64,000 nucleotides of DNA from an uncultured Candidatus Saccharibacteria bacterium. Its GTDB lineage: Bacteria; Patescibacteriota; Minisyncoccia; Phycocordibacterales; CSBR16-119. The notes below the pieces were generated by a model, which was not told the origin of the DNA, ran no database searches, and saw only the letters and a list, made by a program, of their open reading frames with translations. Shown here in pieces: positions 9 to 48,800 of this stretch; within the stretch, counting starts at the first letter, position 1, and the number at the start of each line of letters is the position of its first letter. A program made the position numbers and the translations under genes. Location of the stretch: positions 21,560 through 85,559 of the forward strand of contig CAZLAD010000002.1 of NCBI GenBank assembly GCA_964557535.1, read 5' to 3'.

Positions 9-482
9 GTGAGCAGTTTAACGCAGTTCCCCGAGATGATGGGCGGCAGATTGAAAACCTTGCACCCGATGGTCTTTGGACCCATCCTTGGAAGGACAAG
101 TGTACTGAGCGACATCAAGTCCATGCAGGATCACAAGATGCCGCTCATCGACATCGTCGTCGTGAACCTGTACCCTTTCAATGAAGAAGTCGAGAAGGGC
201 GCCAATACAACCCATCAGAACATCATCGAGAAGATCGACATCGGTGGGCCATCCCTGATCCGTGCCGCAGCCAAGAACTACGAACGCGTCAGCGTCGTCT
301 GCGACCCGCGGCATTACGATGTTCTGGCGGACCTTATCGAAAAGGGTGCCGGTATCTCACATGACCAACGCGAGGACTGGGCGGGCCAGGCCTTCGATCT
401 TACTTCCGGTTACGATGAACCGATCGGAAGCTACTTCGCTCGAAGGAGGCTTGCACGCCAGGAAACAGTCACCGGCGCCTAA
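9..482 (+). CDS. purH: PurH-like IMP cyclohydrolase (MGS-like) domain only; 5' end lies outside the window and the ORF stops before any AICAR-transformylase domain (truncated, possibly pseudogene or HGT fragment)
   Basis: Motifs FPEMMGGRLKTLHP, IDIVVVNLYPF and IDIGGPSLIRAAAKN match the PurH N-terminal domain. The ORF ends after the linker. Local GC is ~55%, against ~40% for the neighbours. Confidence 0.55.
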   Translation: MSSLTQFPEMMGGRLKTLHPMVFGPILGRTSVLSDIKSMQDHKMPLIDIVVVNLYPFNEEVEKGANTTHQNIIEKIDIGGPSLIRAAAKNYERVSVVCDPRHYDVLADLIEKGAGISHDQREDWAGQAFDLTSGYDEPIGSYFARRRLARQETVTGA

Positions 483-2193: not shown

Positions 2194-2756
2194 GAGAAAT
2201 GTAATGGTATACTTATTTTGTGTCTACCACAAGAAAAGAGACCAGAACATACTCCGATCGTGCAGAATATATGCGAGAAGCAGTTAAACGAAGACGTATA
2301 AAGCTTCGTGTAATGGCTCGTGAATATGCTGGCGGTAAATGCAGAATCTGTGGGTACAATAAATCTTCCCGAGCATTAAATTTCCACCATCTTGATCCAA
2401 AGAAAAAAGACTTTGGTTTGGCGGATGGCGGAATAACCAGATCTTGGGAAAAAACTCGCAAAGAAATAGACAAATGTATATTACTTTGCGCAAATTGTCA
2501 CATGGAAGTGCACGACGGAATTACGCAGCTCCCTTCGGAAACGAAGAGATGAAAAACAAGGTGAATTGTCTGGAAGCCCGAGCTGTAACAACAGCGGGTA
2601 ATCAGCAGCCAAGCCTCAATAATTTTTGAGGAAGGTTCAGAGACTATCCTAAACGGAGTAGGCCGAGAGTTTCGGTCGAAGCGCCTTGCACCTAAATTCC
2701 GATTCGGAACACGGTGATGATATAGTCCATTCCTAGAAGTGATTTTAGGGTAAATG
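2194..2756 (+). ncRNA. Group I self-splicing intron (ORF-containing), inserted between tRNA positions 35/36
   Basis: The catalytic-core conserved elements are all present: P-like caacagc (~2600), Q aatcagcagcc (2610-2620), R gttcagagactat (2636-2648) and S gatatagtcc (2719-2728). The intron ends in G before exon 2. Confidence 0.75.
2220..2552 (+). CDS. HNH homing endonuclease encoded inside the group I intron
   Basis: Carries CRICGYNKSSRALNFHHLDP...CILLCANCHMEVH, the HNH/zinc-finger motif. Lies entirely within the intron, 5' of the ribozyme core. Confidence 0.75.
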   Translation: MSTTRKETRTYSDRAEYMREAVKRRRIKLRVMAREYAGGKCRICGYNKSSRALNFHHLDPKKKDFGLADGGITRSWEKTRKEIDKCILLCANCHMEVHDGITQLPSETKR

Positions 2757-2901: not shown

Positions 2902-5900
2902 GTGAATTTTGAAAGAAATCTAAAACCCAACAAACTGGACGTCGGGTCAGTTGAGGATTTGTCCGAAAATCAAGAATCAAAGGAAAATCTAAATCAGGCA
3001 CATGAAAAAATTGTGTCTGTCTTGAAAGTTTTTAAACCAGAAGATATTTCATCAGATGAATTTCTTGATGAGGTGGTGGATAATTTATTTGAAGATGCTA
3101 AAAAACTCCAATTATCAAGGGGTCAACTTTTAGAGACCGATGAAGCTGTTTACTCTGAAATGAGAGAAATTTTGATTTCAAGATTCAAACAAATTTCCCA
3201 AGACTACTATGCTGATTATAAAGATATGAAAACGGAGCAATCTGGCCGAGATCTTTGTAGAAAAGCCAGACTTGGTTTGATTTTACTTGATGATCTGTCG
3301 GACTTCGAAGAAGAATTCACAAAAAGATATAACACGCCAAAAAATGACGATCCGAGACAATTAAATTTTGATAATGTTGTTCGCTATTTAAATTTGGATT
3401 GGCAAAACCCACTGAAAGTCAATGAAATAGAACTGTTGATACAAAATGGATACCTAGAAAAGATGTGTGACTTCAATGGAACACTCTACGGTTATATCGA
3501 AGGGACGCCAGAAGAGTTATTGAATGAGATGTCAAAGTCCGGTTTTGCTGGGTCTGCTCGTTGGTCAGACATAAATCATGCTCTTGGGGCTGTAGCGGGA
3601 AGCGAAGATCAGAAATATAGTAGAAAAGCGTTTGAGAATCTAATTGCAGGAAAATATATTAGAGGTATTGCTGAAAATATAAACGCTTTTGAAAACATAG
3701 ATCTAGAAGACCTAGCGATGGTTGGCCTAGACGCCAAAGACTTTATCAAGTTAATACTTGATAGATACGGAATAGACGACCCAACAATAGGAGATAAATT
3801 GAAGGATTTTGTTAAGCATAGCCAGATTAATTTTTTCGATGAAGAGCTAATTGTAAAAAAATGGCTAGGTTTAAAATTAAACAAAGTTCTGGAACAAGAC
3901 AGTAAGTTTTTTGATATTAGAGATGTAGAGCATTGTAAGAAAGTTATAGAGGCAGGATATCTAGGATTGGCGATATGGGACAATAAAATCTTTGAGGAGG
4001 TTGTTAAGAATGATTATGATTGGCTGCTCAATATAGCCAGAGAAAATCATCAAGAGCATCTCCTGCTCCGCTGTCCCGGTATTGGAAACGTCCTTAAAAA
4101 GGAAGATCAACTTGTATATGGTAAGAAACTTATTTCGGAGGGCAAATGGTATGTATTATCATCAATATTGGGCAATATAAGATACGCAGATTCACATTTT
4201 TCTTCTCAAACATTTGATCAAGATATATACGATTCTATCTCGAGCCATGATTTCCATCCGCATCCTGGAAGCTTTAAAAACTTAAATGAAGAGACTCTTG
4301 AGATTCTTTCTGAAAGGTTCCCTGATTTTATAGAACAGGATCCTCTGAGTATAACTAGTTTCGAATTCGGAGAAAATTCGAGATTAGAGGGATATAAGAG
4401 ATACAAGGAATTTATGCTTGAAGTTGAAGCTTTGTTCGACATTCGATTAAGTAAAGAGAGGCTAGAGACGATGAATTTTAATTTTAAAAGATTATCAAAG
4501 CTTTCTTTGGATCAAGGCTTAGAAAATATAAGAAGAAAGGCTTCTTTATACAAAAAAATCGAATCAGTGGCTATTTCTCAGGGGCACGACAAAGAACAAG
4601 TTTTTGATACCTTTGGTTGGATGTTGAATGATTCACATAGCGCTACACCCATAAGAGAAGAGGTCATTGATGAACTAAAATATGTTCCGAAGTCTCTTCA
4701 CGAAACTGAGAGATGTTTAACTATCTTGAATAGATTGACTGGACTTGATCGAGATAAAAAAACCCGAATAGCAATGGAACTATCTATGATCGCAGGATCA
4801 GAATTTTTGGGGGCCGAAGATGTTATATATGAACGATATTTCCGTATTACTTTGCCTGAAGAATCTAGATCTCCCACCAAAGATGAATTTCCTGCGCGAG
4901 AATCTATGGTTACTCAAATACCTGATTTTTCTACAGAATATAAGGAGATGAGCGAGCATTCGCAAGCAGTGTGGCAAAAATTATTCCCATGGTCTGAATC
5001 TTTGAGAGAACTTGAAGGTATCCAGAAACATGCAAAGAGGAGAGAATATGACCCTTGGCAAACAGAACTAGTTCCGCTTCTTAAACACGAACTTGGAAAT
5101 CTGTCATTTGCTAATCCAGAAGATGGAAAAATTTTAGTTGAATACGTAAAGAGATTTGGAATGAAAAATATTCCCTATCTATATTCGGTATTTTCCCAAG
5201 TTTATAAAAGTAAAGATGTAGATCAAATACCACCTCACATTAAGGGAATCCTTGCAGATGATTTCGGTATCAACGCAGAAGAACTTTGTAAAAAAGATAA
5301 AAAGAATTTGGGTCTAATTTTTGCTGAAATGGAGAAAATGCAGACTAGACTAGTTAGCGATATCAGGAATGAAGATTTATCCTTGCTAGAAAGAGTACAA
5401 AAATCACCTTATTTACTTGAAACGATTAAATCTATAGTTGGCAATTCGGGCCATGCGCATGGAGTAAGTACCGAAGAGGCTTTGGAGCTTTATAGAAAAG
5501 CCGTAAAAGAATCACCTAAGAAATTTTTGTTACCAGAAGGATATGAAGAAGTAGAAGTGAGTGTCCCGCAGGTTATATTTGAAGAGGAAGAAAAATCTGA
5601 GGTGATTCAGAAAGAAAAAGAGAAAATATTAAGCAATTCAGATCTAAGAACTTTGGCTGTTGGCTATCGTGACGTTTATAAGCAAAATAAAGACTCAGAT
5701 AACACAACTGATCTATCTAGCAAACGAGATGAAATTAGAAGTTTTATTCAGAGCTCGATAGATGATTTGAACTTACGTTTAAAACAAGAGGAAGAAAAAG
5801 AAATTAAAAATGAAAAAGCAATCTTCGGTCTAAAGTCTAGGATGCAAGCGCTTGAAGAAAAAAAGAAAGATTTCGATATAAATTTTGAAAAATCTTTGAG

Positions 5901-6798
5901 TAAAGAAATTTCTATAAAAGAAAGAATGGAAATACTTTTCGATCAAATACCAGAAAATTGGCCAGGAAAAAAGAACCTCATGATGGATATTAGCCTTTCA
6001 GATATAAAAAATAAAATGCCAGAAGGTTATGATCTGTTCAAATCAGGCATTCAAAATCACGATGACGAGGCTTCAATCTCTCAGATTTATGAATTTATAG
6101 CAAACCATGTTAAGGAACACTATTTAAACAAAAAACATGGACAAGGAGAAGCTGTGGAAACTGATAATAAGGCTTTGATCAAAGCGTTGAAGCAATATTG
6201 GGGTGTACAAGACTTTGATAACTCAATCTTAGCAGTTAGCCATGTAAAATTAGCGGAGTTAAACAAGGGTTCGATCTCAGAGAATAATCTTAATTTAAGT
6301 TTTGTGCCTTCAAAGGGACTGCAAAGAATTTTCAGTGGCGATTTAGGAAGAGCGTGTACGAGTCGAGAAAACGGCAACCTCGCAAAGGGTGAATTTGAAC
6401 CTATCACATCTTATTCAATCATATTAGATAAAGGAACAAAAAACGAAAGGTTTGCCGGATCTTTCCTGGTTATAGAAACGGGGACAGAAGACGGTAAGCC
6501 AGTAATGGTGCTTAGAGCAAACAACCCGCAACAAAATCTGTTTAATATGGTCCACGGTGACTCATTGGTTGCGTCTATTGTTAGTGAAGTAAAGGCGCTT
6601 GCGAAAAGAAGGGGTATAGATAGAGTGGTGGCGCCTCTATCTGGGGGAGCAACTTCAAACAGAACAGAGGTTGCGGAATACTATGACAAGACGTTTTCAA
6701 GTGGTCAGAAAATTGGTCTTAAAAAATCTCCGGAAACAAACTTTAATGGCTATGATATTTGGAATAAGGAGTCAGTGAATGCCGTCACTGTCATTTAG
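2902..6798 (+). CDS. Giant (1298 aa) acidic/lysine-rich hypothetical protein, GTG start, no signal peptide and no recognisable catalytic motifs; cargo of the tRNA-Asn-linked insertion
   Basis: Uninterrupted 3.9-kb ORF in a compact genome. No Walker, HExxH or other motif recognised. Confidence 0.6.
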   Translation: MNFERNLKPNKLDVGSVEDLSENQESKENLNQAHEKIVSVLKVFKPEDISSDEFLDEVVDNLFEDAKKLQLSRGQLLETDEAVYSEMREILISRFKQISQDYYADYKDMKTEQSGRDLCRKARLGLILLDDLSDFEEEFTKRYNTPKNDDPRQLNFDNVVRYLNLDWQNPLKVNEIELLIQNGYLEKMCDFNGTLYGYIEGTPEELLNEMSKSGFAGSARWSDINHALGAVAGSEDQKYSRKAFENLIAGKYIRGIAENINAFENIDLEDLAMVGLDAKDFIKLILDRYGIDDPTIGDKLKDFVKHSQINFFDEELIVKKWLGLKLNKVLEQDSKFFDIRDVEHCKKVIEAGYLGLAIWDNKIFEEVVKNDYDWLLNIARENHQEHLLLRCPGIGNVLKKEDQLVYGKKLISEGKWYVLSSILGNIRYADSHFSSQTFDQDIYDSISSHDFHPHPGSFKNLNEETLEILSERFPDFIEQDPLSITSFEFGENSRLEGYKRYKEFMLEVEALFDIRLSKERLETMNFNFKRLSKLSLDQGLENIRRKASLYKKIESVAISQGHDKEQVFDTFGWMLNDSHSATPIREEVIDELKYVPKSLHETERCLTILNRLTGLDRDKKTRIAMELSMIAGSEFLGAEDVIYERYFRITLPEESRSPTKDEFPARESMVTQIPDFSTEYKEMSEHSQAVWQKLFPWSESLRELEGIQKHAKRREYDPWQTELVPLLKHELGNLSFANPEDGKILVEYVKRFGMKNIPYLYSVFSQVYKSKDVDQIPPHIKGILADDFGINAEELCKKDKKNLGLIFAEMEKMQTRLVSDIRNEDLSLLERVQKSPYLLETIKSIVGNSGHAHGVSTEEALELYRKAVKESPKKFLLPEGYEEVEVSVPQVIFEEEEKSEVIQKEKEKILSNSDLRTLAVGYRDVYKQNKDSDNTTDLSSKRDEIRSFIQSSIDDLNLRLKQEEEKEIKNEKAIFGLKSRMQALEEKKKDFDINFEKSLSKEISIKERMEILFDQIPENWPGKKNLMMDISLSDIKNKMPEGYDLFKSGIQNHDDEASISQIYEFIANHVKEHYLNKKHGQGEAVETDNKALIKALKQYWGVQDFDNSILAVSHVKLAELNKGSISENNLNLSFVPSKGLQRIFSGDLGRACTSRENGNLAKGEFEPITSYSIILDKGTKNERFAGSFLVIETGTEDGKPVMVLRANNPQQNLFNMVHGDSLVASIVSEVKALAKRRGIDRVVAPLSGGATSNRTEVAEYYDKTFSSGQKIGLKKSPETNFNGYDIWNKESVNAVTVI

Positions 6799-11718: not shown

Positions 11719-12963
11719 TTATACCCTGCCTCGCAATTTCATTGCATCCACGATGCGTTTGACGCCCAGAGAGAAAGCTCCGAGTCGCAAATCAACTTGC
11801 TTGTCCTTGGCCAAAAAATAAACATCTCGATAACTTTTAACGATGATTTCTTTGAGCTTCGACAAGACTTCTGCTTCCGTCCAATAATATCCCTGTCTGT
11901 TCTGAACCCATTCAAAATACGACACGGTAACACCTCCGGCATTGGCGAGCACATCCGGCACGAGTGTTCTACCTTTTTTAAAGAGGATTTCATCGGCTTC
12001 AGGAGTCGTTGGACCGTTGGCCAATTCCAGAATAATTTTTGCTTTAATGTTTACCGCGTTCGACGCAGTGATTTGATTGTCGAGAGCGGCCGGAATCAAA
12101 ACATCGCAATCAACTTCTAAAAGTTCAGTGTTGGTCAAAACTTTGACACCATCTTTTTGAAATTCAATCATGCCCTTCCCGGATTCATCTTTGAAACGAT
12201 TTATCTCTTCGGGATCAAGACCGTTCCCATCATAAAGTCCACCAGAAGAATCCGACACGGCAACGATCTTGCATCCCATGCGATGGAGTATTGACGCCGC
12301 GGTGTATCCGGCGTTACCAAATCCTTGCACGGCGATTTTTAAATCACCAAAATTTAATCCCGCGTCTTTTACCACTTCTTCCAAAACATAAATTCCTCCC
12401 TGAGCTGTGGCAATATTTCTACCAAGTGATCCACCAAGTTCCAGAGGTTTACCAGTAATGACTCCTGGCTCAGCATGTCCAACAATTGATTCAAACTCAT
12501 CCAAGATATAAGACATTATTTGACCATTGGTGTAGACGTCCGGTGCGGGAATGTCTTTGTCGACGCCGATGACAGGCGCCATAGCGCGAGCCCAGGCCCG
12601 AGAGACGAGTTCCAAATCTTTGGCAGAATATTTTTTCGGATCAATTGTCACACCGCCTTTGGCACCTCCTAGTGGAATCCCAACGACAGCGCACTTCACG
12701 GCCATAAGAGCCGCGAGCGCTTTCACTTCATCGAGATCCGCTGCCGAGTGAAAACGAATCCCGCCCTTGAAAGGTCCGCGAGCGTTGTTGAACTGCACAC
12801 GATAGGCGGGGAAAATTTCTTTACCCAAAGATGTTTCAATTTCCAAATTTGTATTGACGATATTTTGCGGTTCGGTCAGTTTGGTAATTTCCGCATCAGA
12901 ATAATTTAAAAGTTTGGCAGTTTTGCCGAGGTTGTCGAGATAATTTTGAAATGGATTATTCAT
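11719..12963 (-). CDS. gdhA: NAD(P)-dependent glutamate dehydrogenase (Glu/Leu/Phe/Val dehydrogenase family)
   Basis: Carries KGGIRFHSAADLDEVKALAALMAVKCAVVGIPLGGAKGG, with the catalytic-Lys region, plus an NAD-binding GFGNAG. Confidence 0.85.
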   Translation of the reverse strand: MNNPFQNYLDNLGKTAKLLNYSDAEITKLTEPQNIVNTNLEIETSLGKEIFPAYRVQFNNARGPFKGGIRFHSAADLDEVKALAALMAVKCAVVGIPLGGAKGGVTIDPKKYSAKDLELVSRAWARAMAPVIGVDKDIPAPDVYTNGQIMSYILDEFESIVGHAEPGVITGKPLELGGSLGRNIATAQGGIYVLEEVVKDAGLNFGDLKIAVQGFGNAGYTAASILHRMGCKIVAVSDSSGGLYDGNGLDPEEINRFKDESGKGMIEFQKDGVKVLTNTELLEVDCDVLIPAALDNQITASNAVNIKAKIILELANGPTTPEADEILFKKGRTLVPDVLANAGGVTVSYFEWVQNRQGYYWTEAEVLSKLKEIIVKSYRDVYFLAKDKQVDLRLGAFSLGVKRIVDAMKLRGRV

Positions 12964-13076
12964 GTTTTTTTACTAATTGTTAGGGCTTAATTATATCCTC
13001 GTTTTGGTATAAAAAGAAATTGGAAGCAGAAAAGCCCCGGATCACCGGGGCTCCTCCACTTCGGTGGGGATACCAC

Positions 13077-14099
13077 CTAGTAGTTTGTGACAACAAGCCC
13101 GCAGGCCCGTCGTTCACCAATCTCACTGGTCTGAACCAACTGATACGCACCGGGTGCGTATCCGGCCAAGCTCATCATCAACGTCGATGATGAACTCGGG
13201 GTTAGTAGGACGTGAACCAAACGACCGTCAGATCCGATGACCTGTAGCGACTGGCCGGGGATGAGGTTTTCGATCGTCACCGTTTCAGCTTCAGTAGCTG
13301 GATTCGGGAAGACCCGCATCTCGCACGGCTTGCACTCAGCCTGATCATCAATTCCGGTCGAGAAGTCGTGATCAAACTCGACAACAGCGAAAGTGCTGCA
13401 GCTGGAGCTATTGCTGACCAGTTCCCAATTCCAGAGCGGGGCAAGCCCCGCATCCTTGTACCACAGCTCGTATGACAGGACATAGTGTCCGGGTTCATCA
13501 AGTTCGAAGTCGTAATACTCGGTGTTTGAGAACCCTGGGGTGATCATCCGATCTTCGGTCCAGACGCTACCTGTGGTGGTATTGGTCAAGATCCTCCTAA
13601 GCCGAAGCAGAACATCAGGAGCCGGATGACCATATCGAGCCACAACGGTAAAAGTGTAGTTGCTACCGTTAATGAACGGTTCGTCCGACACATTCAGCGT
13701 CGGACAAGCCAGTGGACTGAAGGAGTAAATCCCTCCCCCTGTTTCAGGCCGAGGTGAGGCTAATTCAGTCACGCCACCCAGAGGCTTCAAACGCAACTGA
13801 ATGAAATATTCGTGCTCGTTGATGTACGGCTCGATCGGAACAAGGATCACCTCGATTCCAGCGCCGGTCAAGGTATCCGTCAATTCCGGACGCTGAACCC
13901 AGATGTTGGGTGCACTGGTGATGTCCATCACATATACCCGGCGCAGGTAAGTGTCAGAGCCGAAGTCATACGTAACGTTCACCGTTTCCGAAAGCGGAAA
14001 GATCTCCGCGTTCCAGTTGATGACCATCGTCTGCGCCTGCGCGAGGTTCGCGCAGAAGACCGTCGCCACGAAGGCGAACAGGGTTTTCAGGTTCTTCAT
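13077..14099 (-). CDS. GC-rich secreted protein with a C-terminal T9SS (Por) sorting domain (CTD)
   Basis: Signal peptide MKNLKTLFAFVATVFCANLAQA. The last ~80 aa (RVFPNPATEAETVTIENLIPGQSLQVIGSDGRLVHV...) match the Bacteroidetes-type secretion-system C-terminal sorting domain. ~55% GC. Confidence 0.6.
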   Translation of the reverse strand: MKNLKTLFAFVATVFCANLAQAQTMVINWNAEIFPLSETVNVTYDFGSDTYLRRVYVMDITSAPNIWVQRPELTDTLTGAGIEVILVPIEPYINEHEYFIQLRLKPLGGVTELASPRPETGGGIYSFSPLACPTLNVSDEPFINGSNYTFTVVARYGHPAPDVLLRLRRILTNTTTGSVWTEDRMITPGFSNTEYYDFELDEPGHYVLSYELWYKDAGLAPLWNWELVSNSSSCSTFAVVEFDHDFSTGIDDQAECKPCEMRVFPNPATEAETVTIENLIPGQSLQVIGSDGRLVHVLLTPSSSSTLMMSLAGYAPGAYQLVQTSEIGERRACGLVVTNY

Positions 14100-14288
14100 G
14101 ATTTGAGGGTTGTTTGGTTCGTGAAGTTTGCAAGGTACGTGGTCAAGAAGACCAAACCTTTGCTTTGTATACTATCACAAATACTCAGAAAAGTCAACCT
14201 TTTTGAGGCTCTAAAAACCCTTATTTTACAAGGGTTTTTAGGACCCGCCAGTATGGGCAGGTAAACTCTTTGGTTCAATCTTTCTATT

Positions 14289-14939
14289 TTAAATTTTACG
14301 AGCCTTTTTGATGTCAAACTCCCCTATTTTCGTCCGTCGGAGATTTGCCAAAGTTGCAGGGGTGTCCAAGAAATTTCCGATGAATTCCACAAGCGATCTG
14401 ATATAAACTCCGCTCGCCACATCAAAATTTACTCTCAAAACAAAGCCATTTTCTGTTTCTTCGATTCCTCGAAGCTCACTTTTATAAATTTTCATCTTCT
14501 TCACCGGCAAAGGAACGTCGATTCCATCCCTCGCATATTCATAGAGCGCCTTGCCATTACGCTTGATTGCAGAATATTTTGGCACAGCAATATCAAACTC
14601 GCCGTGAAAAGCTCGTATGACTTCTTCGACATAATCTTCTTCGACATTGGTAACTTCACGTGATTCGATAATTTCGCCCTCCAAATCTCCGGTGTCGGTT
14701 TTGGTCCCGAGTAAAATTTCCGCTTCATAACTCTTGTCGAGTTTCAAAAATTGCTCCATCTGTTTCGTGCCGTCATTAACGCCGATAATCATAAGACCTG
14801 ATGCAAGCGGATCGAGCGTTCCAGCGTGTCCCATTTTCCGTATCCCCAAATCCCTTCGCAAAATGCGAATAACGTCAAAGCTTGTGATGCCTTTGGGCTT
14901 GTCGACGAGTATTATATTTTCAGGTAATTTTTTATTCAT
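14289..14939 (-). CDS. truB: tRNA pseudouridine(55) synthase
   Basis: VDKPKGITSFDVIRILRRDLGIRKMGHAGTLDPLASGLM is the TruB catalytic-Asp motif. Confidence 0.85.
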   Translation of the reverse strand: MNKKLPENIILVDKPKGITSFDVIRILRRDLGIRKMGHAGTLDPLASGLMIIGVNDGTKQMEQFLKLDKSYEAEILLGTKTDTGDLEGEIIESREVTNVEEDYVEEVIRAFHGEFDIAVPKYSAIKRNGKALYEYARDGIDVPLPVKKMKIYKSELRGIEETENGFVLRVNFDVASGVYIRSLVEFIGNFLDTPATLANLRRTKIGEFDIKKARKI

Positions 14940-15945: not shown

Positions 15946-17199
15946 CTACTCGTTGATTTTATTCCATATTCTATCTCGGATGTATTTCGCAACCTCCAAA
16001 TCATGTTTCTGAAGAGCGGTACGAAGAAAAGTGAAAAAATTCTTTATGTCTTCCGGTATGCCCGGCCCAAATTCGAAACCATAGATAAAGAAAGCTTTTA
16101 TGTCGTCTTTATACTCTTTGCTCATTGATCGAATTGCGTTTTGCGATTCATTGAAGTCCTTATCTTTGAAATGAGTCTCGTTTTGAGCCAAAAATAGTAA
16201 GTCCAGCATGAGACTATTTTTTTTCTCCTGTTTTCTGAAATCTTTCATACGCTCAATTTCTTCTGTCCAGGCATCTTTATTCTCAACAAACGAGCGTTCG
16301 ATTTCCGGAAACAATTTTTGTTGCATGCTCCGCCAGTCTCCTTTTTTCAAAACCTCGGCGTATTTTTTAGATAGCTCGTACACTTCTCGACGAGACCCTG
16401 GAACAAGGTCTACTTCTTCATTGTTTGCAACACTTTTAAATATCGAGATATTCTCAAGCACTTCATACATCACAGCACGATTAAAATCATGCACGATAAT
16501 AAATTTCTGATCGATCGGATTGCCAGATTTTTCATCTTCTAAACCTCCTTCTCTGTCGTCTGGCGACACATGATAAATTTTGTAACCGTCTTTCTCGTCA
16601 AAAACTCCATGCAATTTTATAGGAGGCCTCTGTCCGTCAACTATATACTGGACTCCTTCGGCTTCGACAATCACCATGGGATGGTCTGGTGTTATACCAA
16701 GCTCGACTTTCAATCCTCGTTTTTTACAGTAAGCTCCAAACATTGTTGTTAAGCCGACACAATTCGTTTCCACATTTTCTTCATTATCGTATTTTGCAAG
16801 CTTGGGAGTAAATCCTCGACTATCGTATCCATTACCTTGATCAAAAACAGAAGTCATGCCAAATCTTACATATAAATGCCATAGAAATTCCCTTTCAGGT
16901 AAATCCATCATACTTGGTGTAAAAATGTAGTGTTCTTTGTTTCTTTGTTCTATTTGTTCAGAAGTTAAAAATCTGGCTTCAAATCTGTTTATGCTTTCCA
17001 AATTTCTTCTGCGACGTTCTGTTTGAATATTTATAAATTGTTGCTGCATAGCTTCGGATATCGCCGGAATATTTTCTTTTGATAATGGTAGGTCTACTTC
17101 CTCCGTAAAAATCATTTCTTTCCCAAGTTCTCTAAAAGACTCCTGTTCTTCGGGTGAAATAAGGGGCTTTTTTCTTTCAAATACTTTCTTTAATTCCAT
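15946..17199 (-). CDS. Hypothetical protein (possible transglutaminase-like Cys/His/Asp fold: NCVGLTTMFGAYC...PDHPMVIV...IVDG)
   Basis: Long ORF. Only a weak motif resemblance. Confidence 0.4.
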   Translation of the reverse strand: MELKKVFERKKPLISPEEQESFRELGKEMIFTEEVDLPLSKENIPAISEAMQQQFINIQTERRRRNLESINRFEARFLTSEQIEQRNKEHYIFTPSMMDLPEREFLWHLYVRFGMTSVFDQGNGYDSRGFTPKLAKYDNEENVETNCVGLTTMFGAYCKKRGLKVELGITPDHPMVIVEAEGVQYIVDGQRPPIKLHGVFDEKDGYKIYHVSPDDREGGLEDEKSGNPIDQKFIIVHDFNRAVMYEVLENISIFKSVANNEEVDLVPGSRREVYELSKKYAEVLKKGDWRSMQQKLFPEIERSFVENKDAWTEEIERMKDFRKQEKKNSLMLDLLFLAQNETHFKDKDFNESQNAIRSMSKEYKDDIKAFFIYGFEFGPGIPEDIKNFFTFLRTALQKHDLEVAKYIRDRIWNKINE

Positions 17200-17263: not shown

Positions 17264-20200
17264 ATGTCCGCAAAATTCGTCCATCTTCATACACACTCGC
17301 ATTACTCCCTACTAGACGGAATGTCAAAAATCGGCGATTTGGTGGCCAAAGCCAAAGAATTCGGCATGACGGCCATGGCCCTAACCGATCACGGCGCCAT
17401 GTACGGCGCGATTGAGTTCTACAAAGAATGCAAAAAGGCTGGTATCAAACCAATCCTCGGCGTCGAAGCCTACATTGCCGAACGCACGCGTTTCGACAAA
17501 GAAGCCAACGTCGATTCGAAACGTTATCACCTGACGCTTCTCGCTAAAAACGCCGCCGGTTACAAAAATCTGATGAAGCTCGTCTCAGCATCTTTTATCG
17601 ATGGCTACTATTACAAGCCACGCATGGACGAGGAACTCTTGCGACAATATTCTGAGGGCGTCATCTGTCTATCGGGTTGCCCGGCTGGCGAACTCGCTCA
17701 CGCCATCCGTGCCAAAGACGACGAAAAAGCTCGCGCCATAATTAACAAATACCAAAGTATTTTCGGTAAAGAAAATTTCTTCTTGGAACTCATGAGTCAT
17801 CCAGAAGTTGAAAATTACGAAATCGTCCGTGACGGCATTAAAAAATATTCCAAGGAACTAAGTATTCCAATTGTCGGAACCTGGGACTCACATTATCTCC
17901 ACGAAGATGACTCGGCCGCACACAATACCCTTCTCGCTATCAACACGCACGGCGGCGAAATGAAAATGAGTGGCGACTATTCTTTCATTGATCCAGAAAA
18001 GGCATCAAAGTTTTTCGCTGAAATTCCTGAGGCTTTGGAAAACACCGTTAAGGTTGCCGACCTGATAAATATTGAACTCGAACTTGATACGTGGGTCTTT
18101 CCCAAATTCGAGCTCGACCCTGGTCTCGATGCCGATGCCCAAGTGCGAAGAAATGTTTACGCGGGGATTCCGACGCGTTATGGTGAGACGTCGAAGAAAA
18201 TCGAAGATCGTATCGAATACGAGCTCGCCATCATCAAGCAAAAAGGCTTCTCAATCTACTTCCTCATCGTCGCCGACCTTATCCGCTTTGCTCGTGAGAA
18301 TAAAATTTTGACAAACATCCGAGGTTCGGTGGCCGGCTCCATCTGCTCATACCTTCTCGGCATCACCACCGTCGATCCATTTCGCTTCCAACTTCCTTTC
18401 GAGCGATTTCTAAACCCTGAGCGTCCATCCGCGCCCGATATCGATATGGACTTTGCCGATAACCGCCGTGACGAGGTCATTGATTATGCGCGTCAAAAAT
18501 ACGGAGAAGCTGCCGTGGCACAGATTGGAACATTTGGTACCATGCTCGCTCGCGGATCTGTACGAGACGTCGCTCGTGCGCTTGGTTATGCTTATGGAGT
18601 CGGAGACAAAATTTCGAAATTGATTCCTTTAGGTAAACAAGGCTTCCCGATGACGATTGATCTCGCCCTAAGTATGGTTGAAGAATTGAAAAAAGCGTAC
18701 GACACCGACGCCGTCACCAAAGAAATCATCGACATGGCCAAGAAAATCGAAGGCTGCGCAAGACACATCAGCGTGCACGCGGCGGGTGTCGTTATCTCGC
18801 CAACTCGCGTCGACGACTATGCGCCAATCCAACTCGACCCTAAAGGTGGAAAGATCATCACTCAATACGACATGCACTCCGTCGAAGCCGCCGGACTTAT
18901 CAAATTCGACTTTTTGGGAATTAGAAATCTCGCCATTCTCGGAGGCGCCGTGGAGTTGGTCAAAAAAATCGAAGGTGTAGAAGTCGATATCGAAAATATC
19001 CCGATGGACGACAAGAAAACTTTCGAAATGCTCGCACGTGGCGAAACTATCGGACTTTTCCAACTAAACGGCTCCGGCATGACACGATATTTGAAAGAAC
19101 TTCGTCCAACGGTTATCGACGACATCAACGCCATGGTGGCGCTTTATCGTCCGGGACCGATGGAAATGATTCCCGAATATATCCGCCGCAAACAAAATCA
19201 TCACCTCATCAGATTTCTAGATCCTCGCATGTCGGACATTCTCGATTTGTCGTACGGAGTTATCACCTACCAAGACGACGTCATGATGATTGCCATCAAG
19301 CTCGCCGGATATTCTTGGCTCGAGGCCGACAAATTGCGCAAAGCCATGGGTAAAAAAATTCCCGAAGTTATGGCCGCTGAGAAAGACAAGCTGATGGCGG
19401 GACTTTTGAAAAATGGTATGACCAAACAAAAAGCCGACGAGCTTTGGGCGCTTATCGAGCCATTCGCCGCGTATGGATTTAACAAGGCTCACGCTGCTTC
19501 GTACGGTCGTGTGGCCTATCAGACGGCTTATATGAAAGCCCACTTCCCGGTTCCTTATATGACGGCTATTCTCACGGCCGAGTCGGGCGACATCGAAAAA
19601 GTCTCCGAAATCATTCACGAATGCGCTCGTATGGGTATCGACGTCTTGCCACCAGACGTGAACGAATGCTTCGGCGGATTCACCGTTATCAAAGACGATA
19701 CTGGTTCTGGTAAAGACAAGATTCGTTTTGGCTTCTACACGATCAAGAACTTAGGAACAGATATCGCCGACGCCATCATCGAAGAACGCAAAGTCCGCGG
19801 AAGATTTACAAGTCTCGAAAATTTTCTCGAACGTGTCACACATAAAAATGTAAACAAGAAATCTCTCGAAGCCCTCATCAAGTCCGGCGCCATGGATTCG
19901 TTCGGCGATCGCGGAGTCTTGGCTGGTAACATTGAAAATCTAACAGAATTCAACAAATCATTTTCAAAAGTCGACAAAGACCAAGTTAGTCTCTTTGGCG
20001 GATCTTTGGCTCCTAAATCAATCCTCCGGTTGGGCGATGTGCCTCCCGTCGACATGAAAACCAAACTCGCCTGGGAGAAAGAACTTCTGGGGCTTTATGT
20101 TTCCGGTCACCCACTCGATGGTATTCGCGAGAAAATTGAAAAAGTTGGTATCAACATAAACAAGATTAAACTAACTGGTCGGGAAGACCAACCAGTGACT

Positions 20201-20431
20201 CTGGCTTGTGTAGTTCAGTCAGTTCGAATAATCATCACCAAGAAAAATCAACAAATGGCTTTCGTCCAGCTCGAAGATCTAACCGGCACGATCGAAGCCG
20301 TGGCATTCCCAACAATTTACAAAAACTTCATGAACATGCTCATGGAAGACAAAATCCTGGCAATCAAAGGTAAAGTTTCAATCCGCGAAGGCGAAAAGAC
20401 GCTCGTTATAGACGAGGTCAAAGAAATTTGA
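17264..20431 (+). CDS. dnaE: DNA polymerase III alpha subunit
   Basis: PHP domain VHLHTHSHYSLLDG, a polymerase core and an OB fold. 1055 aa. Confidence 0.9.
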   Translation: MSAKFVHLHTHSHYSLLDGMSKIGDLVAKAKEFGMTAMALTDHGAMYGAIEFYKECKKAGIKPILGVEAYIAERTRFDKEANVDSKRYHLTLLAKNAAGYKNLMKLVSASFIDGYYYKPRMDEELLRQYSEGVICLSGCPAGELAHAIRAKDDEKARAIINKYQSIFGKENFFLELMSHPEVENYEIVRDGIKKYSKELSIPIVGTWDSHYLHEDDSAAHNTLLAINTHGGEMKMSGDYSFIDPEKASKFFAEIPEALENTVKVADLINIELELDTWVFPKFELDPGLDADAQVRRNVYAGIPTRYGETSKKIEDRIEYELAIIKQKGFSIYFLIVADLIRFARENKILTNIRGSVAGSICSYLLGITTVDPFRFQLPFERFLNPERPSAPDIDMDFADNRRDEVIDYARQKYGEAAVAQIGTFGTMLARGSVRDVARALGYAYGVGDKISKLIPLGKQGFPMTIDLALSMVEELKKAYDTDAVTKEIIDMAKKIEGCARHISVHAAGVVISPTRVDDYAPIQLDPKGGKIITQYDMHSVEAAGLIKFDFLGIRNLAILGGAVELVKKIEGVEVDIENIPMDDKKTFEMLARGETIGLFQLNGSGMTRYLKELRPTVIDDINAMVALYRPGPMEMIPEYIRRKQNHHLIRFLDPRMSDILDLSYGVITYQDDVMMIAIKLAGYSWLEADKLRKAMGKKIPEVMAAEKDKLMAGLLKNGMTKQKADELWALIEPFAAYGFNKAHAASYGRVAYQTAYMKAHFPVPYMTAILTAESGDIEKVSEIIHECARMGIDVLPPDVNECFGGFTVIKDDTGSGKDKIRFGFYTIKNLGTDIADAIIEERKVRGRFTSLENFLERVTHKNVNKKSLEALIKSGAMDSFGDRGVLAGNIENLTEFNKSFSKVDKDQVSLFGGSLAPKSILRLGDVPPVDMKTKLAWEKELLGLYVSGHPLDGIREKIEKVGININKIKLTGREDQPVTLACVVQSVRIIITKKNQQMAFVQLEDLTGTIEAVAFPTIYKNFMNMLMEDKILAIKGKVSIREGEKTLVIDEVKEI

Positions 20432-33023: not shown

Positions 33024-34199
33024 ATGCAAAAAAACAAACCTGATTTATCTGGTCAAAAAATACGTTCGGTTTTCTTGATTGGTTTTCTGCTTACGGTTGC
33101 ACTTGCCCTCACTGGCTACATCGATTCGAGCTTCCTTGGAACCAAAGTCAACGTCAAAACAGTTGGGCTTTTGTTCTCTCTTGGGTCCATCGCCTCTATC
33201 GTCTTTCTAACTTATCTGCCAGAAATATTGAAAAAGATAGGTATTCGTGGCGTTTTCCATTTGACGGGATTGACCTACCTCGTGTCAGTTCTAGGAATGT
33301 TGAATACCGAAACACCTTTGGTTTTCGGAATATTGTTTATCTTTTATATTGCTTCGGGCTACGGCATGTATTTCGCTATTGATCTACTCATAGAAAGCAT
33401 GTCCAAAAAGAAAACAACTGGTGTGACACGCGGGATTTATCTTGCGATTTACAACTTGGCGTATCTTCTCGGACCACTTCTGGCCGGAATGATTCTAAAA
33501 GATAATTCTTTTAATCTCGTATACCTCATCGCCGGAGTGTTTGTTATTATCATGTTTTTGGTCTTCATCAAAGATTTGGAAAAGCTCGACATTGAAACCT
33601 CGCATCGAAAGATTTCCCCGCCCGAAATCATCAATCGACTTTTTAGAAGTGAGAACCTTTTTAATATTTTTATCGTAAGCTTGATGCTGTCATTTTTCTT
33701 CAGCTGGATGGCTATTTACACGCCTATTTATCTTCATACATTTTTGGGATTTAATTGGCAACAAATCGGCACAATGTTTGCCATCATGCACATCCCCTAT
33801 ATTACTCTCGAGGTCCCGATCGGACGTTTGGCTGACAAATACAATTGTGAAAAATATTTACTCACGATTGGTCTCGTCATCATAGGACTCTCGACTGCCG
33901 GTCTATCTCTTTTTGCCGATGGTAGTTTCTGGGCTTGGACTCTGGGGCTTGCAATAACTCGTGTCGGCGCAAGTTTTGTACAAGTTGGCCACGAAAGCTA
34001 CTTTTTCAAGCGTGTCGACGCGCAAGACTCACACATGATTGCACTTTACCGAAACGCCTCTCCGCTTGCATATATCTTGGGACCAATAATCGGAACGATT
34101 GTTTTAGCATTTACAAATTACAATGCTTTGTTTATAGTGCTCGGAGTTATCATGCTTGGCGTCACCTACTTTAGTGTACGCCTAAAGAAATTTCGATGA
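33024..34199 (+). CDS. MFS transporter (12 TM)
   Basis: Twelve hydrophobic helices with an MFS-like loop arrangement. Confidence 0.6.
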   Translation: MQKNKPDLSGQKIRSVFLIGFLLTVALALTGYIDSSFLGTKVNVKTVGLLFSLGSIASIVFLTYLPEILKKIGIRGVFHLTGLTYLVSVLGMLNTETPLVFGILFIFYIASGYGMYFAIDLLIESMSKKKTTGVTRGIYLAIYNLAYLLGPLLAGMILKDNSFNLVYLIAGVFVIIMFLVFIKDLEKLDIETSHRKISPPEIINRLFRSENLFNIFIVSLMLSFFFSWMAIYTPIYLHTFLGFNWQQIGTMFAIMHIPYITLEVPIGRLADKYNCEKYLLTIGLVIIGLSTAGLSLFADGSFWAWTLGLAITRVGASFVQVGHESYFFKRVDAQDSHMIALYRNASPLAYILGPIIGTIVLAFTNYNALFIVLGVIMLGVTYFSVRLKKFR

Positions 34200-44816: not shown

Positions 44817-45264
44817 CAATGATATTAGAAAACAATTTATTGAAACTCTCGAAGAAGTCCCTTTCGTTAAATATGCTGCCAAGAAGGTCGGTATCAATCG
44901 TACGACTATATATCGATGGATGCAGGAAGACCCAAGATTCAGAATTCAAGTAGAAAAGTCTTTGGGTGAGGGCCGTAAATTACTTATCGAAGACGCGGAG
45001 TATCAATTACTAAAAAAGATTAGAAAAGATGGCAACCAAAGAGCCATAGAGTTTTTCCTAAAACATAATAATAAGAAGTATTATCCAAGAAAAACGATGG
45101 AGGTATATCCATTGGCTGAAGACCAGTATCAGATGTCGTTTGAAGAACACGCGGCTATCGAGTTGTGGTCAGAGAAGTTTGTTGAGCTATCTCCTATGTG
45201 GCGACGAATCTTCTCTGACATGGAAAAGAAGCTAGGAAACCCCGACGAAGACCGATCCTTATAA
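44809..45264 (+). CDS. HTH DNA-binding protein (terminase-small-subunit-like or regulator)
   Basis: VGINRTTIYRWMQ helix-turn-helix. Overlaps the upstream gene by 8 nt. Confidence 0.5.
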   Translation: MHNNDIRKQFIETLEEVPFVKYAAKKVGINRTTIYRWMQEDPRFRIQVEKSLGEGRKLLIEDAEYQLLKKIRKDGNQRAIEFFLKHNNKKYYPRKTMEVYPLAEDQYQMSFEEHAAIELWSEKFVELSPMWRRIFSDMEKKLGNPDEDRSL

Positions 45265-45276
45265 GGAGGAAGATGA

Positions 45277-45882: not shown

Positions 45883-46167
45883 ATGTTATTACTAATTAAT
45901 AAATCCCGATGATGGATACAAAAAGCCCACCACGGGTAGGGCCCGAAAGCCCTCATACGAGTTTCCTCGTATGGCCAATCAGACAACCCCATGATGGGTT
46001 CTTTATGTCTGATTGGACTTTTTCACCATGCCCAGTAAGGGGTTTAGGCTACTTTATTTATTCGATTGTTCGACCATAATACCAAATAATAGGCATTACG
46101 CCCACCACCATAGCAGATTCCAGGATTTTGCGAAGGGGGTTACCAACAAGTTTAGATCTAAATTTTT

Positions 46168-48780: not shown

Positions 48781-48800
48781 TCAATCCTTGACCTCCAAAA

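What the first reader, a model, noticed from the sequence alone, without database searches (positions are those of the whole stretch)
13077..14260. GC-rich gene with a Bacteroidetes-type T9SS C-terminal sorting domain in a CPR-like context
The secreted 340-aa protein ends with a Por/T9SS CTD-like segment, which only functions in organisms with a type IX secretion system. GC is ~55%. It is flanked by a GC hairpin (13025-13075) and core genes (gdh, truB) of ~38% GC. This suggests horizontal acquisition from an FCB-group donor, or a chimeric assembly.
Basis: partly seen in the sequence, partly recalled or inferred. Interest (0 to 1): 0.55.

Follow-up and report, generated by a model that had tools for sequence, protein, structure and literature searches.

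The report
Hypervariable secreted protein with T9SS-type tail
A tiny-genome (Patescibacteria) bacterium carries, at a fixed spot between two housekeeping genes, a swappable and compositionally odd gene for a secreted three-domain protein whose last domain is a true relative of the Bacteroidota type IX secretion tag. It is neither an assembly error nor a recent import.

Summary
Window 13077-14099 (-) encodes a 340-aa protein with a signal peptide. Its GC is 53.9% and GC3 0.65 in a 41.7% GC window, and its tetranucleotide profile is uncorrelated with the rest (r = -0.05; other genes 0.74-0.94). The window copy scores below the curated cut-offs for the T9SS type A CTD. At family level the homology is solid: 24 of 25 relatives hit Por_Secre_tail, and the family profile hits solved T9SS CTDs at E ~1e-8.

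The interpretation does not hold. The gene sits in the same rnhB-truB-X-gdh-DUF2914 synteny in all ten lineages examined, from independent assemblies of one Paceibacteria (Nomurabacteria-like) clade. It has a conserved promoter, leader and terminator; the "GC hairpin" is that terminator. Its odd composition recurs in the low-GC lineages. That excludes a chimera and a recent FCB transfer.

X is a replaceable cassette. Strains with 95-96% identical flanks carry X alleles that are only 27% identical. The breakpoints lie just after the signal peptide and before gdh.

Most likely X is a Sec-exported, strongly expressed, fast-diversifying surface or extracellular protein of three Ig/FN3-like domains. 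The CTD would then serve as a T9SS-independent module. Why canonical T9SS motifs persist in a lineage thought to lack an outer membrane is unresolved.

The parts
14211..14241 (-). Terminator-like hairpin of the upstream gene truB (12-bp perfect stem, 7-nt loop). It separates truB from X.
   Evidence: Inverted repeat I5; sequence read. truB is 14289-14939 (-), Pfam TruB_N in orthologous loci.
14169..14197 (-). Promoter of X: TTGACT, 17 nt, TAGTAT, with a TGTGA extension before the -10 box.
   Evidence: Consensus scan. The TTGAC -35 box is present in the six of eight aligned lineages whose stretch reaches that far; the (T/C)GTGATAnTAT(A) extended -10 box is shared by most of the eight (CATGATAATATA in L087, TGTGATATAAAT in L089). 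Function is inferred; no transcript data.
14100..14162 (-). 5' leader of about 60-70 nt: a small hairpin (AAGGTTTGGTCTTCTTGACCACGTACCTT) followed by a CA-rich tract without a Shine-Dalgarno motif (CTTCACGAACCAAACAACCCTCAAATC). The transcription start is inferred from the -10 box.
   Evidence: The CA-rich tract recurs in L003, L005, L085, L087, L088, L092 and L096. Most other window genes have a -10 box 6-10 nt before the ATG, i.e. look leaderless.
14034..14099 (-). Codons 1-22: Sec-type signal peptide. This is also the conserved 5' arm of the variable cassette.
   Evidence: Sequence; family alignment ending in A-Q. The DNA remains alignable to L096 here, with long identical runs (62-70% per 50-column bin), while the mature part is unalignable. 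Helix 3-17 in the AF2 model.
13716..14033 (-). Residues 23-128: variable beta-sandwich domain D1.
   Evidence: AF2 with a 25-sequence alignment, block pLDDT 86-97. Foldseek finds tandem FN3/Ig arrays. Mean pairwise family identity 24%.
13368..13715 (-). Residues 129-244: variable beta-sandwich domain D2.
   Evidence: AF2 pLDDT 87-96. Conserved PG.Y..C..L.Y.D.G..P.W motif. Mean pairwise identity 24%.
13317..13367 (-). Residues 245-261: linker carrying the near-invariant [DG]-[IFL]-S-T-[GS]-[VI] motif (FSTGIDD here) and Cys259. It matches the TG[IV][DE] stretch that precedes type A CTDs in unrelated cargo proteins.
   Evidence: Column counts S 21/25, T 23/25, G/S 20/25, V/I 22/25. pLDDT below 50 at residues 248-253. 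Same motif in P0029, P0030, P0043 and P0062. PorU cleavage consensus T/E/D/N|G/A/S from PMC10202324.
13080..13316 (-). Residues 262-340: T9SS type A CTD-like domain, a seven-strand Ig-like sandwich. This copy is derived: it has a TEAE insertion, a TSEIGER insertion, and ends in VVTNY instead of RFVK.
   Evidence: sub-threshold; family-level homology; seven strands, pLDDT 84-92; motif E lysine present in about 22/25 members but absent here; Cys259/Cys332 pair covaries across the family.
13023..13062 (-). Intrinsic terminator of X: 18-bp GC-rich stem, 4-nt loop, U-rich tail.
   Evidence: -40.3 kcal/mol for the 71-nt stretch, z = -6.2. An equivalent AAAGCCCCGG...CCGGGGCTTTT-type hairpin follows X in L001, L003, L005, L085 and L089.
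11719..12963 (-). gdh (glutamate dehydrogenase): conserved 3' flank of the cassette. Identity to L096 returns to 98% at about 12973.
   Evidence: Pfam ELFV_dehydrog in orthologous loci; junction alignment.

Best explanation
X (13077-14099, minus strand) is one allele of a locus-bound, hypervariable gene. The family is found only in one Paceibacteria (Nomurabacteria-like) clade of the Patescibacteria.

X is an autonomous transcription unit between truB and gdh. It has a conserved strong sigma-70-type promoter, a CA-rich leader and a strong terminator.

The product is exported by the Sec pathway. It consists of two rapidly diverging Ig/FN3-like beta-sandwich domains, a short linker, and a C-terminal seven-strand domain that is a true homolog of the Bacteroidota T9SS type A CTD.

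The part encoding the mature protein behaves as a replaceable cassette. Recombination between the conserved signal-peptide/leader arm and the gdh arm swaps deeply divergent alleles between otherwise near-identical genomes. This is the pattern seen at surface-antigen, S-layer, pilin and flagellin loci under diversifying selection from hosts, phages or predators.

The high GC, C/G-ending codon usage and foreign-looking oligonucleotide profile are properties of the cassette pool. They are kept in the low-GC lineages examined, so they do not mark a recent import.

Patescibacteria are thought to have no outer membrane, and T9SS is a Bacteroidota/FCB outer-membrane machine. The CTD therefore most likely acts here as a T9SS-independent structural, retention or binding module.

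Shown: gene structure, synteny, homology, predicted fold, cassette replacement, composition.
Inferred: export, surface location, high expression, the role of the CTD.
For: The gene is real and under selection. dN/dS is 0.17 (against L001) and 0.26 (against L003).

Synteny rnhB-truB-X-gdh-DUF2914 holds in all ten lineages examined.

The family is small and confined. About 25 full-length members were found among 1.84 billion representatives. All other hits match only the CTD.

CTD homology: 38.8 and 28.1 bits in orthologs; 24/25 members; 5jvk, 7pzj, 8glk_D at E ~1e-8; also PorZ 5m11. The canonical TG[IV]D/E linker motif is shared with unrelated CTD cargo.

Fold: AF2 mean pLDDT 87, showing a signal helix, two beta-sandwich domains and a seven-strand CTD. 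Foldseek returns tandem FN3/Ig adhesin-like arrays such as CNTN FN1-3, SiiE, RbmA and Bap.

Cassette behaviour:
- TruB+GDH are 95-96% identical between the window and L096, but X is only 27% identical.
- X identity does not track flank identity (Spearman 0.22, p = 0.27).
- DNA identity collapses right after the signal peptide and recovers to 98% at the gdh start.
- Against L001, X has dS 0.55 while its flanks have 0.03-0.32.

Composition:
- GC3 of X exceeds its flanks in all twelve loci compared except L094, where X merely equals truB (0.69 each) and exceeds gdh (0.63).
- Tetranucleotide r against the local background is -0.11 to 0.24 in ten of the eleven loci tested; L094 is the exception at 0.58. 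The gdh control gives 0.74-0.87.
- Codon choice is the main driver.

Transcription unit.

Extracytoplasmic folding: the Cys pair in CTD strands 1 and 7 is present together or absent together, with a single exception (P0153/L005).

No T9SS genes occur among the window's ORFs. Patescibacteria are proposed to lack an outer membrane (PMC12102498). T9SS is specific to Bacteroidota (PMC7463736, PMC10994853).
Against: No experimental or expression data exist. Export, surface location and high expression are inferred.

Only 64 kb of the genome could be inspected. A T9SS-like or other CTD-reading system elsewhere in the genome is not excluded.

The family keeps features that in Bacteroidota are read by T9SS components: the motif E lysine in about 22/25 members and the S-T-G/S linker motif at the PorU-type cleavage position. 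This is not obviously expected for a purely structural domain.

The cause of the persistent GC and codon bias is unresolved. Candidates are selection for expression, GC-biased gene conversion at a recombination hot spot, or flow of cassettes from GC-richer relatives such as L094.

Foldseek TM-scores are low (0.2-0.3). The adhesin resemblance is only at the level of tandem Ig-like domains.
Confidence: 0.62

Rival explanations
1. Recent horizontal acquisition of the whole gene from a Bacteroidota/FCB donor. The high GC and CTD would be donor traits not yet ameliorated.
For: Strong compositional anomaly. The CTD family is overwhelmingly Bacteroidota-associated (PMC10202324). CTD-only hits in the representative library are typical multi-domain cargo.
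Against: The gene is present at the same locus in all ten lineages examined, including ones whose flanks are saturated at synonymous sites (dS about 2 or more). The anomaly recurs in the low-GC lineages. No full-length homolog was found outside this synteny or in 185,579 GTDB species genomes other than L005. No mobility genes or bounding repeats are present. The promoter and leader are conserved and native in style.
Confidence: 0.04
2. Chimeric assembly: a GC-rich fragment of another organism was mis-joined into a CPR contig.
For: Abrupt change in GC and tetranucleotide profile at the gene borders.
Against: Identical junctions appear in at least four independent assemblies of near-identical strains. 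Equivalent junctions appear in about ten further lineages from unrelated samples and assemblers. The borders coincide with a promoter and a terminator, not with arbitrary points.
Confidence: 0.01
3. X is a functional cargo of a CTD-reading machinery. This could be an undescribed sorting or anchoring pathway in these cells. It could also be the T9SS attachment complex (PorV/PorU) of a Bacteroidota host cell, onto which the epibiont's secreted protein docks or is even covalently attached.
For: Canonical signal features are conserved over deep divergence: S-T-[GS]-[VI] at the PorU-type cleavage position, PNP, GRLV, G.Y, and the motif E lysine in about 22/25 members. The profile matches a CTD solved in an F. 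johnsoniae T9SS structure entry (8glk_D, E = 5.7e-8). Other Paceibacteria carry further CTD-like secreted proteins (L039, L011).
Against: No T9SS gene is in the window. Patescibacteria are thought to lack an outer membrane. The window allele itself has lost the motif E lysine and carries insertions, yet it is under purifying selection. The conserved motifs are also fold determinants of the Ig-like domain. The host of this clade is unknown.
Confidence: 0.12
4. On the composition only. The GC-rich signature arises because cassettes circulate within the clade and originate in GC-richer members, so they carry donor composition. It would not come from selection on codon usage or GC-biased gene conversion acting in situ.
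For: Lineage L094 has locus GC 52.5% and flank GC3 0.63-0.69. There X (GC3 0.69) fits its background (tetranucleotide r = 0.58). X alleles share a signature with each other (r = 0.4-0.67). Cassette exchange is shown. The codon set includes CGG, CTG and CCG, which is not typical of translational selection in AT-rich genomes.
Against: Only one GC-rich lineage was sampled. Alleles are deeply diverged (23-48% identity), so most have resided in low-GC genomes for a long time without ameliorating. The preference for C-ending codons (TTC, ATC, AAC, TAC, CAC) fits selection for expression. The elevated dS also fits a recombination hot spot with biased gene conversion.
Confidence: 0.3

Closest known systems
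T9SS type A CTD cargo proteins of Bacteroidota (Pfam PF18962 / TIGR04183), e.g. CTDs of P. gingivalis RgpB and PorZ (5m11) and F. johnsoniae cargo (8glk_D)
   Same: N-terminal Sec signal peptide. C-terminal domain of about 80 aa with seven beta-strands in an Ig-like fold. Shared motifs: TG[IV][DE] linker, [FY]PNP, GR.V, G.Y.L and a terminal K. Profile-level sequence homology.
   Different: The host is a Patescibacterium, proposed to lack an outer membrane, with no T9SS gene seen. The window copy is below the curated thresholds, has lost the motif E lysine and carries two insertions. Many family members have a covarying disulfide-type Cys pair in the CTD. The gene is a single-locus hypervariable cassette, not one of many cargo genes.
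Hypervariable surface-protein loci exchanged as cassettes between conserved flanks (recalled from general knowledge, not tested here: the C. difficile slpA S-layer cassette, flagellin central regions, type IV pilin alleles, O-antigen loci with atypical GC)
   Same: Fixed chromosomal position. Conserved 5' signal/leader and 3' flank. Deeply divergent alleles distributed incongruently with the flanks. Atypical base composition. Own strong promoter and terminator.
   Different: No evidence yet that X forms an S-layer, pilus or antigen. It is small (34 kDa). No known cell-wall anchor (SLH, LPXTG, LysM) was detected.
Tandem FN3/Ig-like bacterial adhesin and matrix proteins (V. cholerae RbmA 4kkp, Salmonella SiiE 2yn5, Bap 7c7u)
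   Same: A string of beta-sandwich domains in a secreted protein (Foldseek E = 1e-7 to 1e-5).
   Different: Similarity is at the level of domain class only (TM 0.2-0.3, identity 10-15%). There is no sequence homology and no shared binding motif.

Membership tests
T9SS type A C-terminal sorting domain (PF18962 / TIGR04183) | HMM score at or above the curated threshold | tested here: not met
   Window protein: 18.1 bits against 27 (Pfam) and 17 against 23 (TIGR04183). Positional orthologs do pass: L005 38.8 bits, P0003 28.1 bits. 24/25 family members match at E <= 0.01. Homology holds at family level; this copy is degenerate.
T9SS type A C-terminal sorting domain (PF18962 / TIGR04183) | Domain at the extreme C-terminus, with a seven-strand Ig-like beta-sandwich fold | tested here: met
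   Match at residues 263-325 of 340. The AF2 model shows seven strands between residues 256 and 337, with pLDDT 84-92. The fold definition is from PMC10202324. This is a prediction, not a solved structure.
T9SS type A C-terminal sorting domain (PF18962 / TIGR04183) | Conserved motifs, including the motif E lysine(s) in the last residues that are required for secretion | tested here: not met
   The window copy ends in GLVVTNY with no lysine. About 22 of 25 family members end in RFVK-like sequences. PNP, GRLV and G.Y are present in the window copy.
T9SS cargo protein (functional class) | N-terminal Sec signal peptide | tested here: met
   MKNLKTLFAFVATVFCANLAQA|QT, with the pattern conserved in the family. 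Helix 3-17 in the model. Assessed by inspection only, without a dedicated predictor.
T9SS cargo protein (functional class) | T9SS machinery (SprA/Sov, PorK/L/M/N, PorU, PorV) encoded in the same genome | not testable with these tools
   None among the window's ORFs of at least 150 aa that were scanned (all but three) (Pfam and NCBIfam).
T9SS cargo protein (functional class) | Organism belongs to Bacteroidota/FCB and has an outer membrane | tested here: not met
   The best DnaE relatives are Nomurabacteria, Paceibacterota and Parcubacteria MAGs at 56-81% identity (lineage). Patescibacteria are proposed to lack an outer membrane (PMC12102498).
Recently acquired genomic islet (horizontal transfer) | Atypical nucleotide composition | tested here: met
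   GC3 z = 2.7. Tetranucleotide r = -0.05 against 0.74-0.94 for other genes.
Recently acquired genomic islet (horizontal transfer) | Patchy presence among close relatives; mobility genes or bounding repeats | tested here: not met
   Present at the same locus in all ten lineages examined. No flanking repeats beyond chance. The neighbours are truB and gdh.
Hypervariable replacement cassette at a fixed locus | Allele divergence uncoupled from flank divergence, with sharp breakpoints in conserved arms | tested here: met
   Flanks are 95-96% identical and X 27% identical between the window and L096. Spearman 0.22 (not significant) across 28 pairs. Breakpoints at about 14035 and about 12985.

The most novel reading that the evidence does not exclude
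The canonical T9SS signal is conserved in this Patescibacteria family because a CTD-recognising machinery still reads it. The features concerned are the S-T-G/S cleavage-region motif, the PNP/GRLV/G.Y motifs and the terminal lysine.

One possibility is an undescribed CTD-dependent sorting or anchoring route in a cell with a single membrane.

A more striking possibility involves the T9SS attachment complex (PorV/PorU) on the surface of a Bacteroidota host. The epibiont's hypervariable protein would dock there, or be transpeptidated onto host lipopolysaccharide. This would be molecular mimicry of host cargo used for attachment.
Probability: 0.1. Interest if true: 0.9.

Novelty: new variant of a known kind. 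Interest (0 to 1): 0.5.

Why it matters
T9SS type A CTDs are treated as a hallmark of Bacteroidota outer-membrane secretion. When they are annotated in CPR MAGs, contamination is an obvious suspicion.

This case shows a genuine, selection-maintained CTD homolog embedded in a conserved Patescibacteria locus. Either the domain has a T9SS-independent life as a surface module, or something still reads it.

The locus is also a clean example of a single-gene hypervariable cassette in an ultra-small, probably host-dependent bacterium. That makes it a candidate determinant of host or phage specificity and a handle for strain typing.

It carries a methodological warning too. A strong GC, codon and tetranucleotide anomaly can be a stable property of a gene family over long evolutionary times. 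It is therefore not proof of recent transfer or misassembly.

No paper in the searchable library links T9SS CTDs with CPR/Patescibacteria.

Tried and rejected
- Scan of 185,579 GTDB species genomes with the three-sequence profile found nothing. The patterns were too specific; L005's ortholog was found later by synteny.
- First AF2 run with three sequences was poor outside the CTD (pLDDT 44.7). The 25-sequence alignment fixed this.
- The search for homologous proteins with the 25-sequence profile returned only five proteins, because the candidate list was swamped by CTD words.
- P0016, P0024 and P0048 are long proteins with many short matches to X. They are repetitive sequences with meaningless Pfam hits and no passing stretch, so they were discarded.
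- CTD-only best hits P0028 and P0030 lie on contigs of 2-3 kb that carry no taxonomic information.
- No Rfam family is present in 12964-14288.
- No meaningful direct repeats bound the gene.
- A 21-nt leader/CDS complementarity in the window (I1) is not conserved in position or strength in other lineages. It is treated as unproven.
- A DGR or retroelement explanation for the variability was considered. No reverse transcriptase or template repeat is nearby, and differences are not adenine-specific or localised.
- A lipoprotein was considered. Cys16 is not in a lipobox and is not conserved.
Full report
WHAT IS THERE

The ORF is at 13077..14099 on the minus strand and encodes 340 aa. Its product starts with a Sec-type signal peptide, MKNLKTLFAFVATVFCANLAQA|QT.

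The C-terminal 80 residues match Pfam Por_Secre_tail only weakly: E = 0.0033, 18.1 bits against a gathering score of 27. TIGR04183 gives 17 bits against 23.

The gene is compositionally extreme.
- GC is 0.539 and GC3 0.648. The other ORFs of at least 150 aa average GC3 0.426 (z = 2.7).
- Its tetranucleotide profile does not correlate with the window (r = -0.05). Every other gene of at least 900 nt gives 0.74-0.94.

The "GC hairpin" is an 18-bp stem at 13023-13062 on the gene's own strand, right after the stop codon and followed by a U-rich tract. The 71-nt stretch containing it folds at -40.3 kcal/mol, z = -6.2. It is the gene's intrinsic terminator. The only correction is that the flanks are 42-45% GC, not 38%.

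WHOSE GENOME

DnaE (17264-20431) is 56-81% identical to DnaE of many MAGs labelled Nomurabacteria, Paceibacterota, Parcubacteria or Patescibacteria (lineage).

The window holds small-genome housekeeping genes: ddl, bacA, gdh, truB, rnhB, dnaE, secA, RNase J, pyrG, prfB, ftsEX and gatA. It also holds one mobile-element-like block. No T9SS component is present.

NOT A CHIMERA, NOT A RECENT IMPORT

A word-indexed search of 5.8 billion proteins found only the protein itself, an 86% relative and a 44% relative. All three lie in the order rnhB-truB-X-gdh-DUF2914 on contigs from different samples and assemblers.

The nearest GTDB genome is L005 (DnaE 81% identical). It has a 354-aa signal-peptide protein in the same slot. 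Its N-terminal part does not align with X by BLASTP, but its tail is an unambiguous Por_Secre_tail at 38.8 bits, E = 1.2e-9.

A profile search of 1.84 billion representatives found about 25 full-length relatives of 304-358 aa. All further hits match only the last ~100 residues of X, at the C-terminal end of proteins of every size. That is the generic T9SS CTD.

Every family member whose context I could read (P0005, P0012, P0013, P0019, P0020, P0021, P0022) lies directly downstream of truB. On contigs long enough to show it (all but P0012, P0020 and P0021), it also lies upstream of gdh. The family is thus a set of positional orthologs confined to one Paceibacteria clade.

No repeats or mobility genes bound the gene.

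THE TAIL IS A REAL TYPE A CTD

- 24 of 25 members hit Por_Secre_tail (best E = 3.2e-11).
- The family profile hits solved T9SS CTDs: 5jvk, 7pzj and 8glk_D at E = 1e-8 to 6e-8. It also hits PorZ 5m11.
- AlphaFold2 with the 25-sequence alignment gives mean pLDDT 87. The model has a signal helix, two beta-sandwich domains (about residues 23-128 and 129-244), a floppy linker, and a seven-strand sandwich at 256-337. That last domain matches the published CTD fold (PMC10202324).
- The linker carries a near-invariant [DG]-[IFL]-S-T-[GS]-[VI] motif (S 21/25, T 23/25). The same TG[IV][DE] stretch precedes the CTD in unrelated cargo proteins. It coincides with the PorU cleavage consensus T/E/D/N|G/A/S.
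- About 22 of 25 members end in RFVK-like sequences, which is motif E.

The window allele and its 86% relative are derived. They carry two insertions and end in VVTNY/VVTTY without the lysine. This explains the sub-threshold score.

A Cys in CTD strand 1 and a Cys in strand 7 are present together (10 members) or absent together (14 members), with one exception (P0153/L005). This suggests a disulfide and an extracytoplasmic, stably folded domain.

Whole-model Foldseek hits are tandem FN3/Ig arrays of adhesins and matrix proteins at low TM. They support the domain class and nothing more.

AN AUTONOMOUS AND PROBABLY STRONG TRANSCRIPTION UNIT

truB ends with its own hairpin at 14211-14241. Then comes TTGACT-17-TAGTAT with a TGTGA extension at 14197..14169. 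The extended -10 box recurs, with small variations, in the eight aligned lineages, and the TTGAC -35 box is present in the six whose aligned stretch reaches it.

A 60-70-nt leader follows, ending in a CA-rich, SD-free tract. That tract recurs in most lineages. A GC-rich terminator follows X in every lineage checked.

Most other genes of the window instead have a -10 box 6-10 nt before the ATG and no SD motif. They look leaderless.

A REPLACEABLE CASSETTE

Against L001, the flanking genes are 96-99% identical in protein with dS 0.03-0.32. X is 86% identical with dS 0.55 and dN/dS 0.17.

Against L096, TruB+GDH are 95-96% identical but X is only 27% identical. Over 28 lineage pairs, X identity does not track flank identity (Spearman 0.22, p = 0.27).

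In the window/L096 DNA alignment:
- identity is 86-98% over most of the aligned truB 3' part;
- it is about 60% in the spacer;
- the signal-peptide codons align, with long identical runs (62-70% per 50-column bin);
- it falls to background right after the cleavage site (about 14035);
- it returns to 98% at the gdh start (about 12973).

The mature-protein part is therefore exchanged between conserved arms. This pattern is familiar from surface-antigen loci.

THE COMPOSITION IS A STABLE PROPERTY OF THE CASSETTE POOL

X has a higher GC3 than its flanks in nearly every lineage: 0.61-0.78 against 0.35-0.58, and 0.46 against 0.26-0.40 in L089. Only in L094 does it merely match truB.

Its tetranucleotide profile is uncorrelated with the local background in ten of the eleven loci tested (r = -0.11 to 0.24). 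The gdh control gives 0.74-0.87. X alleles resemble each other (r = 0.4-0.67) even at about 25% protein identity.

Codon choice is the main cause. CAG is used 100% of the time against 34% genome-wide, TTC 80% against 37%, ATC 72% against 35%, and CGG 43% against 5%. A lysine- and isoleucine-poor, threonine- and proline-rich composition adds to it. Recoding gdh with X's codon usage drops its r from 0.80 to 0.09.

Synonymous sites of the flanks are saturated between lineages. A neutral foreign signature should therefore have decayed. Selection, biased gene conversion at this recombination hot spot, or cassette flow from GC-richer relatives must maintain it. One such relative exists: L094 has locus GC 52.5%, and there X fits its background (r = 0.58).

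HOW IT PROBABLY WORKS

Shown:
- a selected, locus-bound, hypervariable gene;
- a product with a signal peptide, two variable Ig-like domains and a T9SS-type CTD;
- its own promoter, leader and terminator.

Inferred:
- export by Sec across the single membrane;
- display on or release from the cell surface;
- high expression;
- diversifying selection by a host, phage or predator;
- use of the CTD as a T9SS-independent structural, retention or binding module.

The last inference rests on two published points. T9SS is a Bacteroidota outer-membrane machine (PMC7463736, PMC10994853). Patescibacteria are proposed to lack an outer membrane (PMC12102498).

What remains odd is that the family keeps precisely the motifs that T9SS components read. 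Other Paceibacteria also carry distinct secreted proteins with near-threshold CTDs (L039:19385-20884 and L011:18232-18819).

I could not inspect whole genomes, so a CTD-reading system cannot be excluded. It could belong to the bacterium itself or to a Bacteroidota host.

No paper in the searchable library connects T9SS CTDs with CPR.

VERDICT

The proposed causes (recent FCB transfer or chimera) are wrong. The gene is a native, hypervariable secreted-protein cassette with a genuine T9SS-type tail in a lineage where that tail should have no machinery. I rate it a moderately interesting new variant of a known kind.

Noticed in passing
window, all ORFs of at least 150 aa (e.g. 1205-2068 -, 15946-17199 -, 17264-20431 +, 33024-34199 +): Only about 5 of 46 genes have any Shine-Dalgarno-like motif. 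Many have a TAnAAT-type -10 box, often TG-extended, ending 6-10 nt before the start codon. The genome looks largely leaderless and SD-free; X is one of the few clearly leadered genes.
   Followed up: partly
window 2476-2749 (+): A full-length group I intron match (72.6 bits, E = 2e-18) lies in the spacer between ddl (1205-2068) and a 1298-aa ORF. No rRNA or tRNA host gene was detected around it.
   Followed up: partly
window 43506-50147, with LOOT RNA at 45938-46050 (-): A mobile-element-like block: ParB-N6/N4 DNA methylase fusion, HTH protein, 870-aa KAP-family NTPase and a large serine recombinase. A LOOT RNA (79.8 bits) lies between them.
   Followed up: no
window 2902-6798 (+): A 1298-aa ORF with no Pfam or NCBIfam hit and nearly the lowest GC3 in the window (0.30). 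It is conserved in L004. Possibly a large lineage-specific envelope protein.
   Followed up: no
L039:19385-20884 (+) and L011:18232-18819 (-): Two other Paceibacteria MAGs (DnaE about 59-62% identical) encode unrelated proteins ending in near-threshold Por_Secre_tail domains (26.1 and 25.6 bits). The L039 protein has a signal peptide ending in AQAQ. T9SS-type tails are thus not unique to the X family in this group.
   Followed up: partly
L094 (JGI Ga0119868_1000250), whole locus: A member of the same clade with much higher GC (52.5%; flank GC3 0.63-0.69). Its X allele is compositionally at home there (tetranucleotide r = 0.58). It is a possible source of the GC-rich signature of X cassettes.
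   Followed up: partly
window 13214-13234 and 14100-14120: A 21-nt, 86% complementarity links the CA-rich leader just upstream of the ATG with the codons for the conserved DGRLV motif of the CTD. Chance expectation by a rough estimate of my own is about 0.01. It is not conserved in place or strength in other lineages; L005 and L092 show weaker leader/3'-end matches.
   Followed up: yes
window 15946-17199 (-): A 417-aa ORF with no family hit lies between rnhB and dnaE. It is present in the window and L001 (99% identical) but absent from L003, L005 and L085, where rnhB abuts dnaE. This is a second variable slot in the neighbourhood.
   Followed up: no
window 9-482 (+): The only ORF with a higher GC3 (0.70) than X is a PurH fragment (MGS + AICARFT/IMPCHase) near the window edge. 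GC3 among native genes ranges from 0.30 to 0.61, so GC3 alone is a weak transfer marker here.
   Followed up: partly
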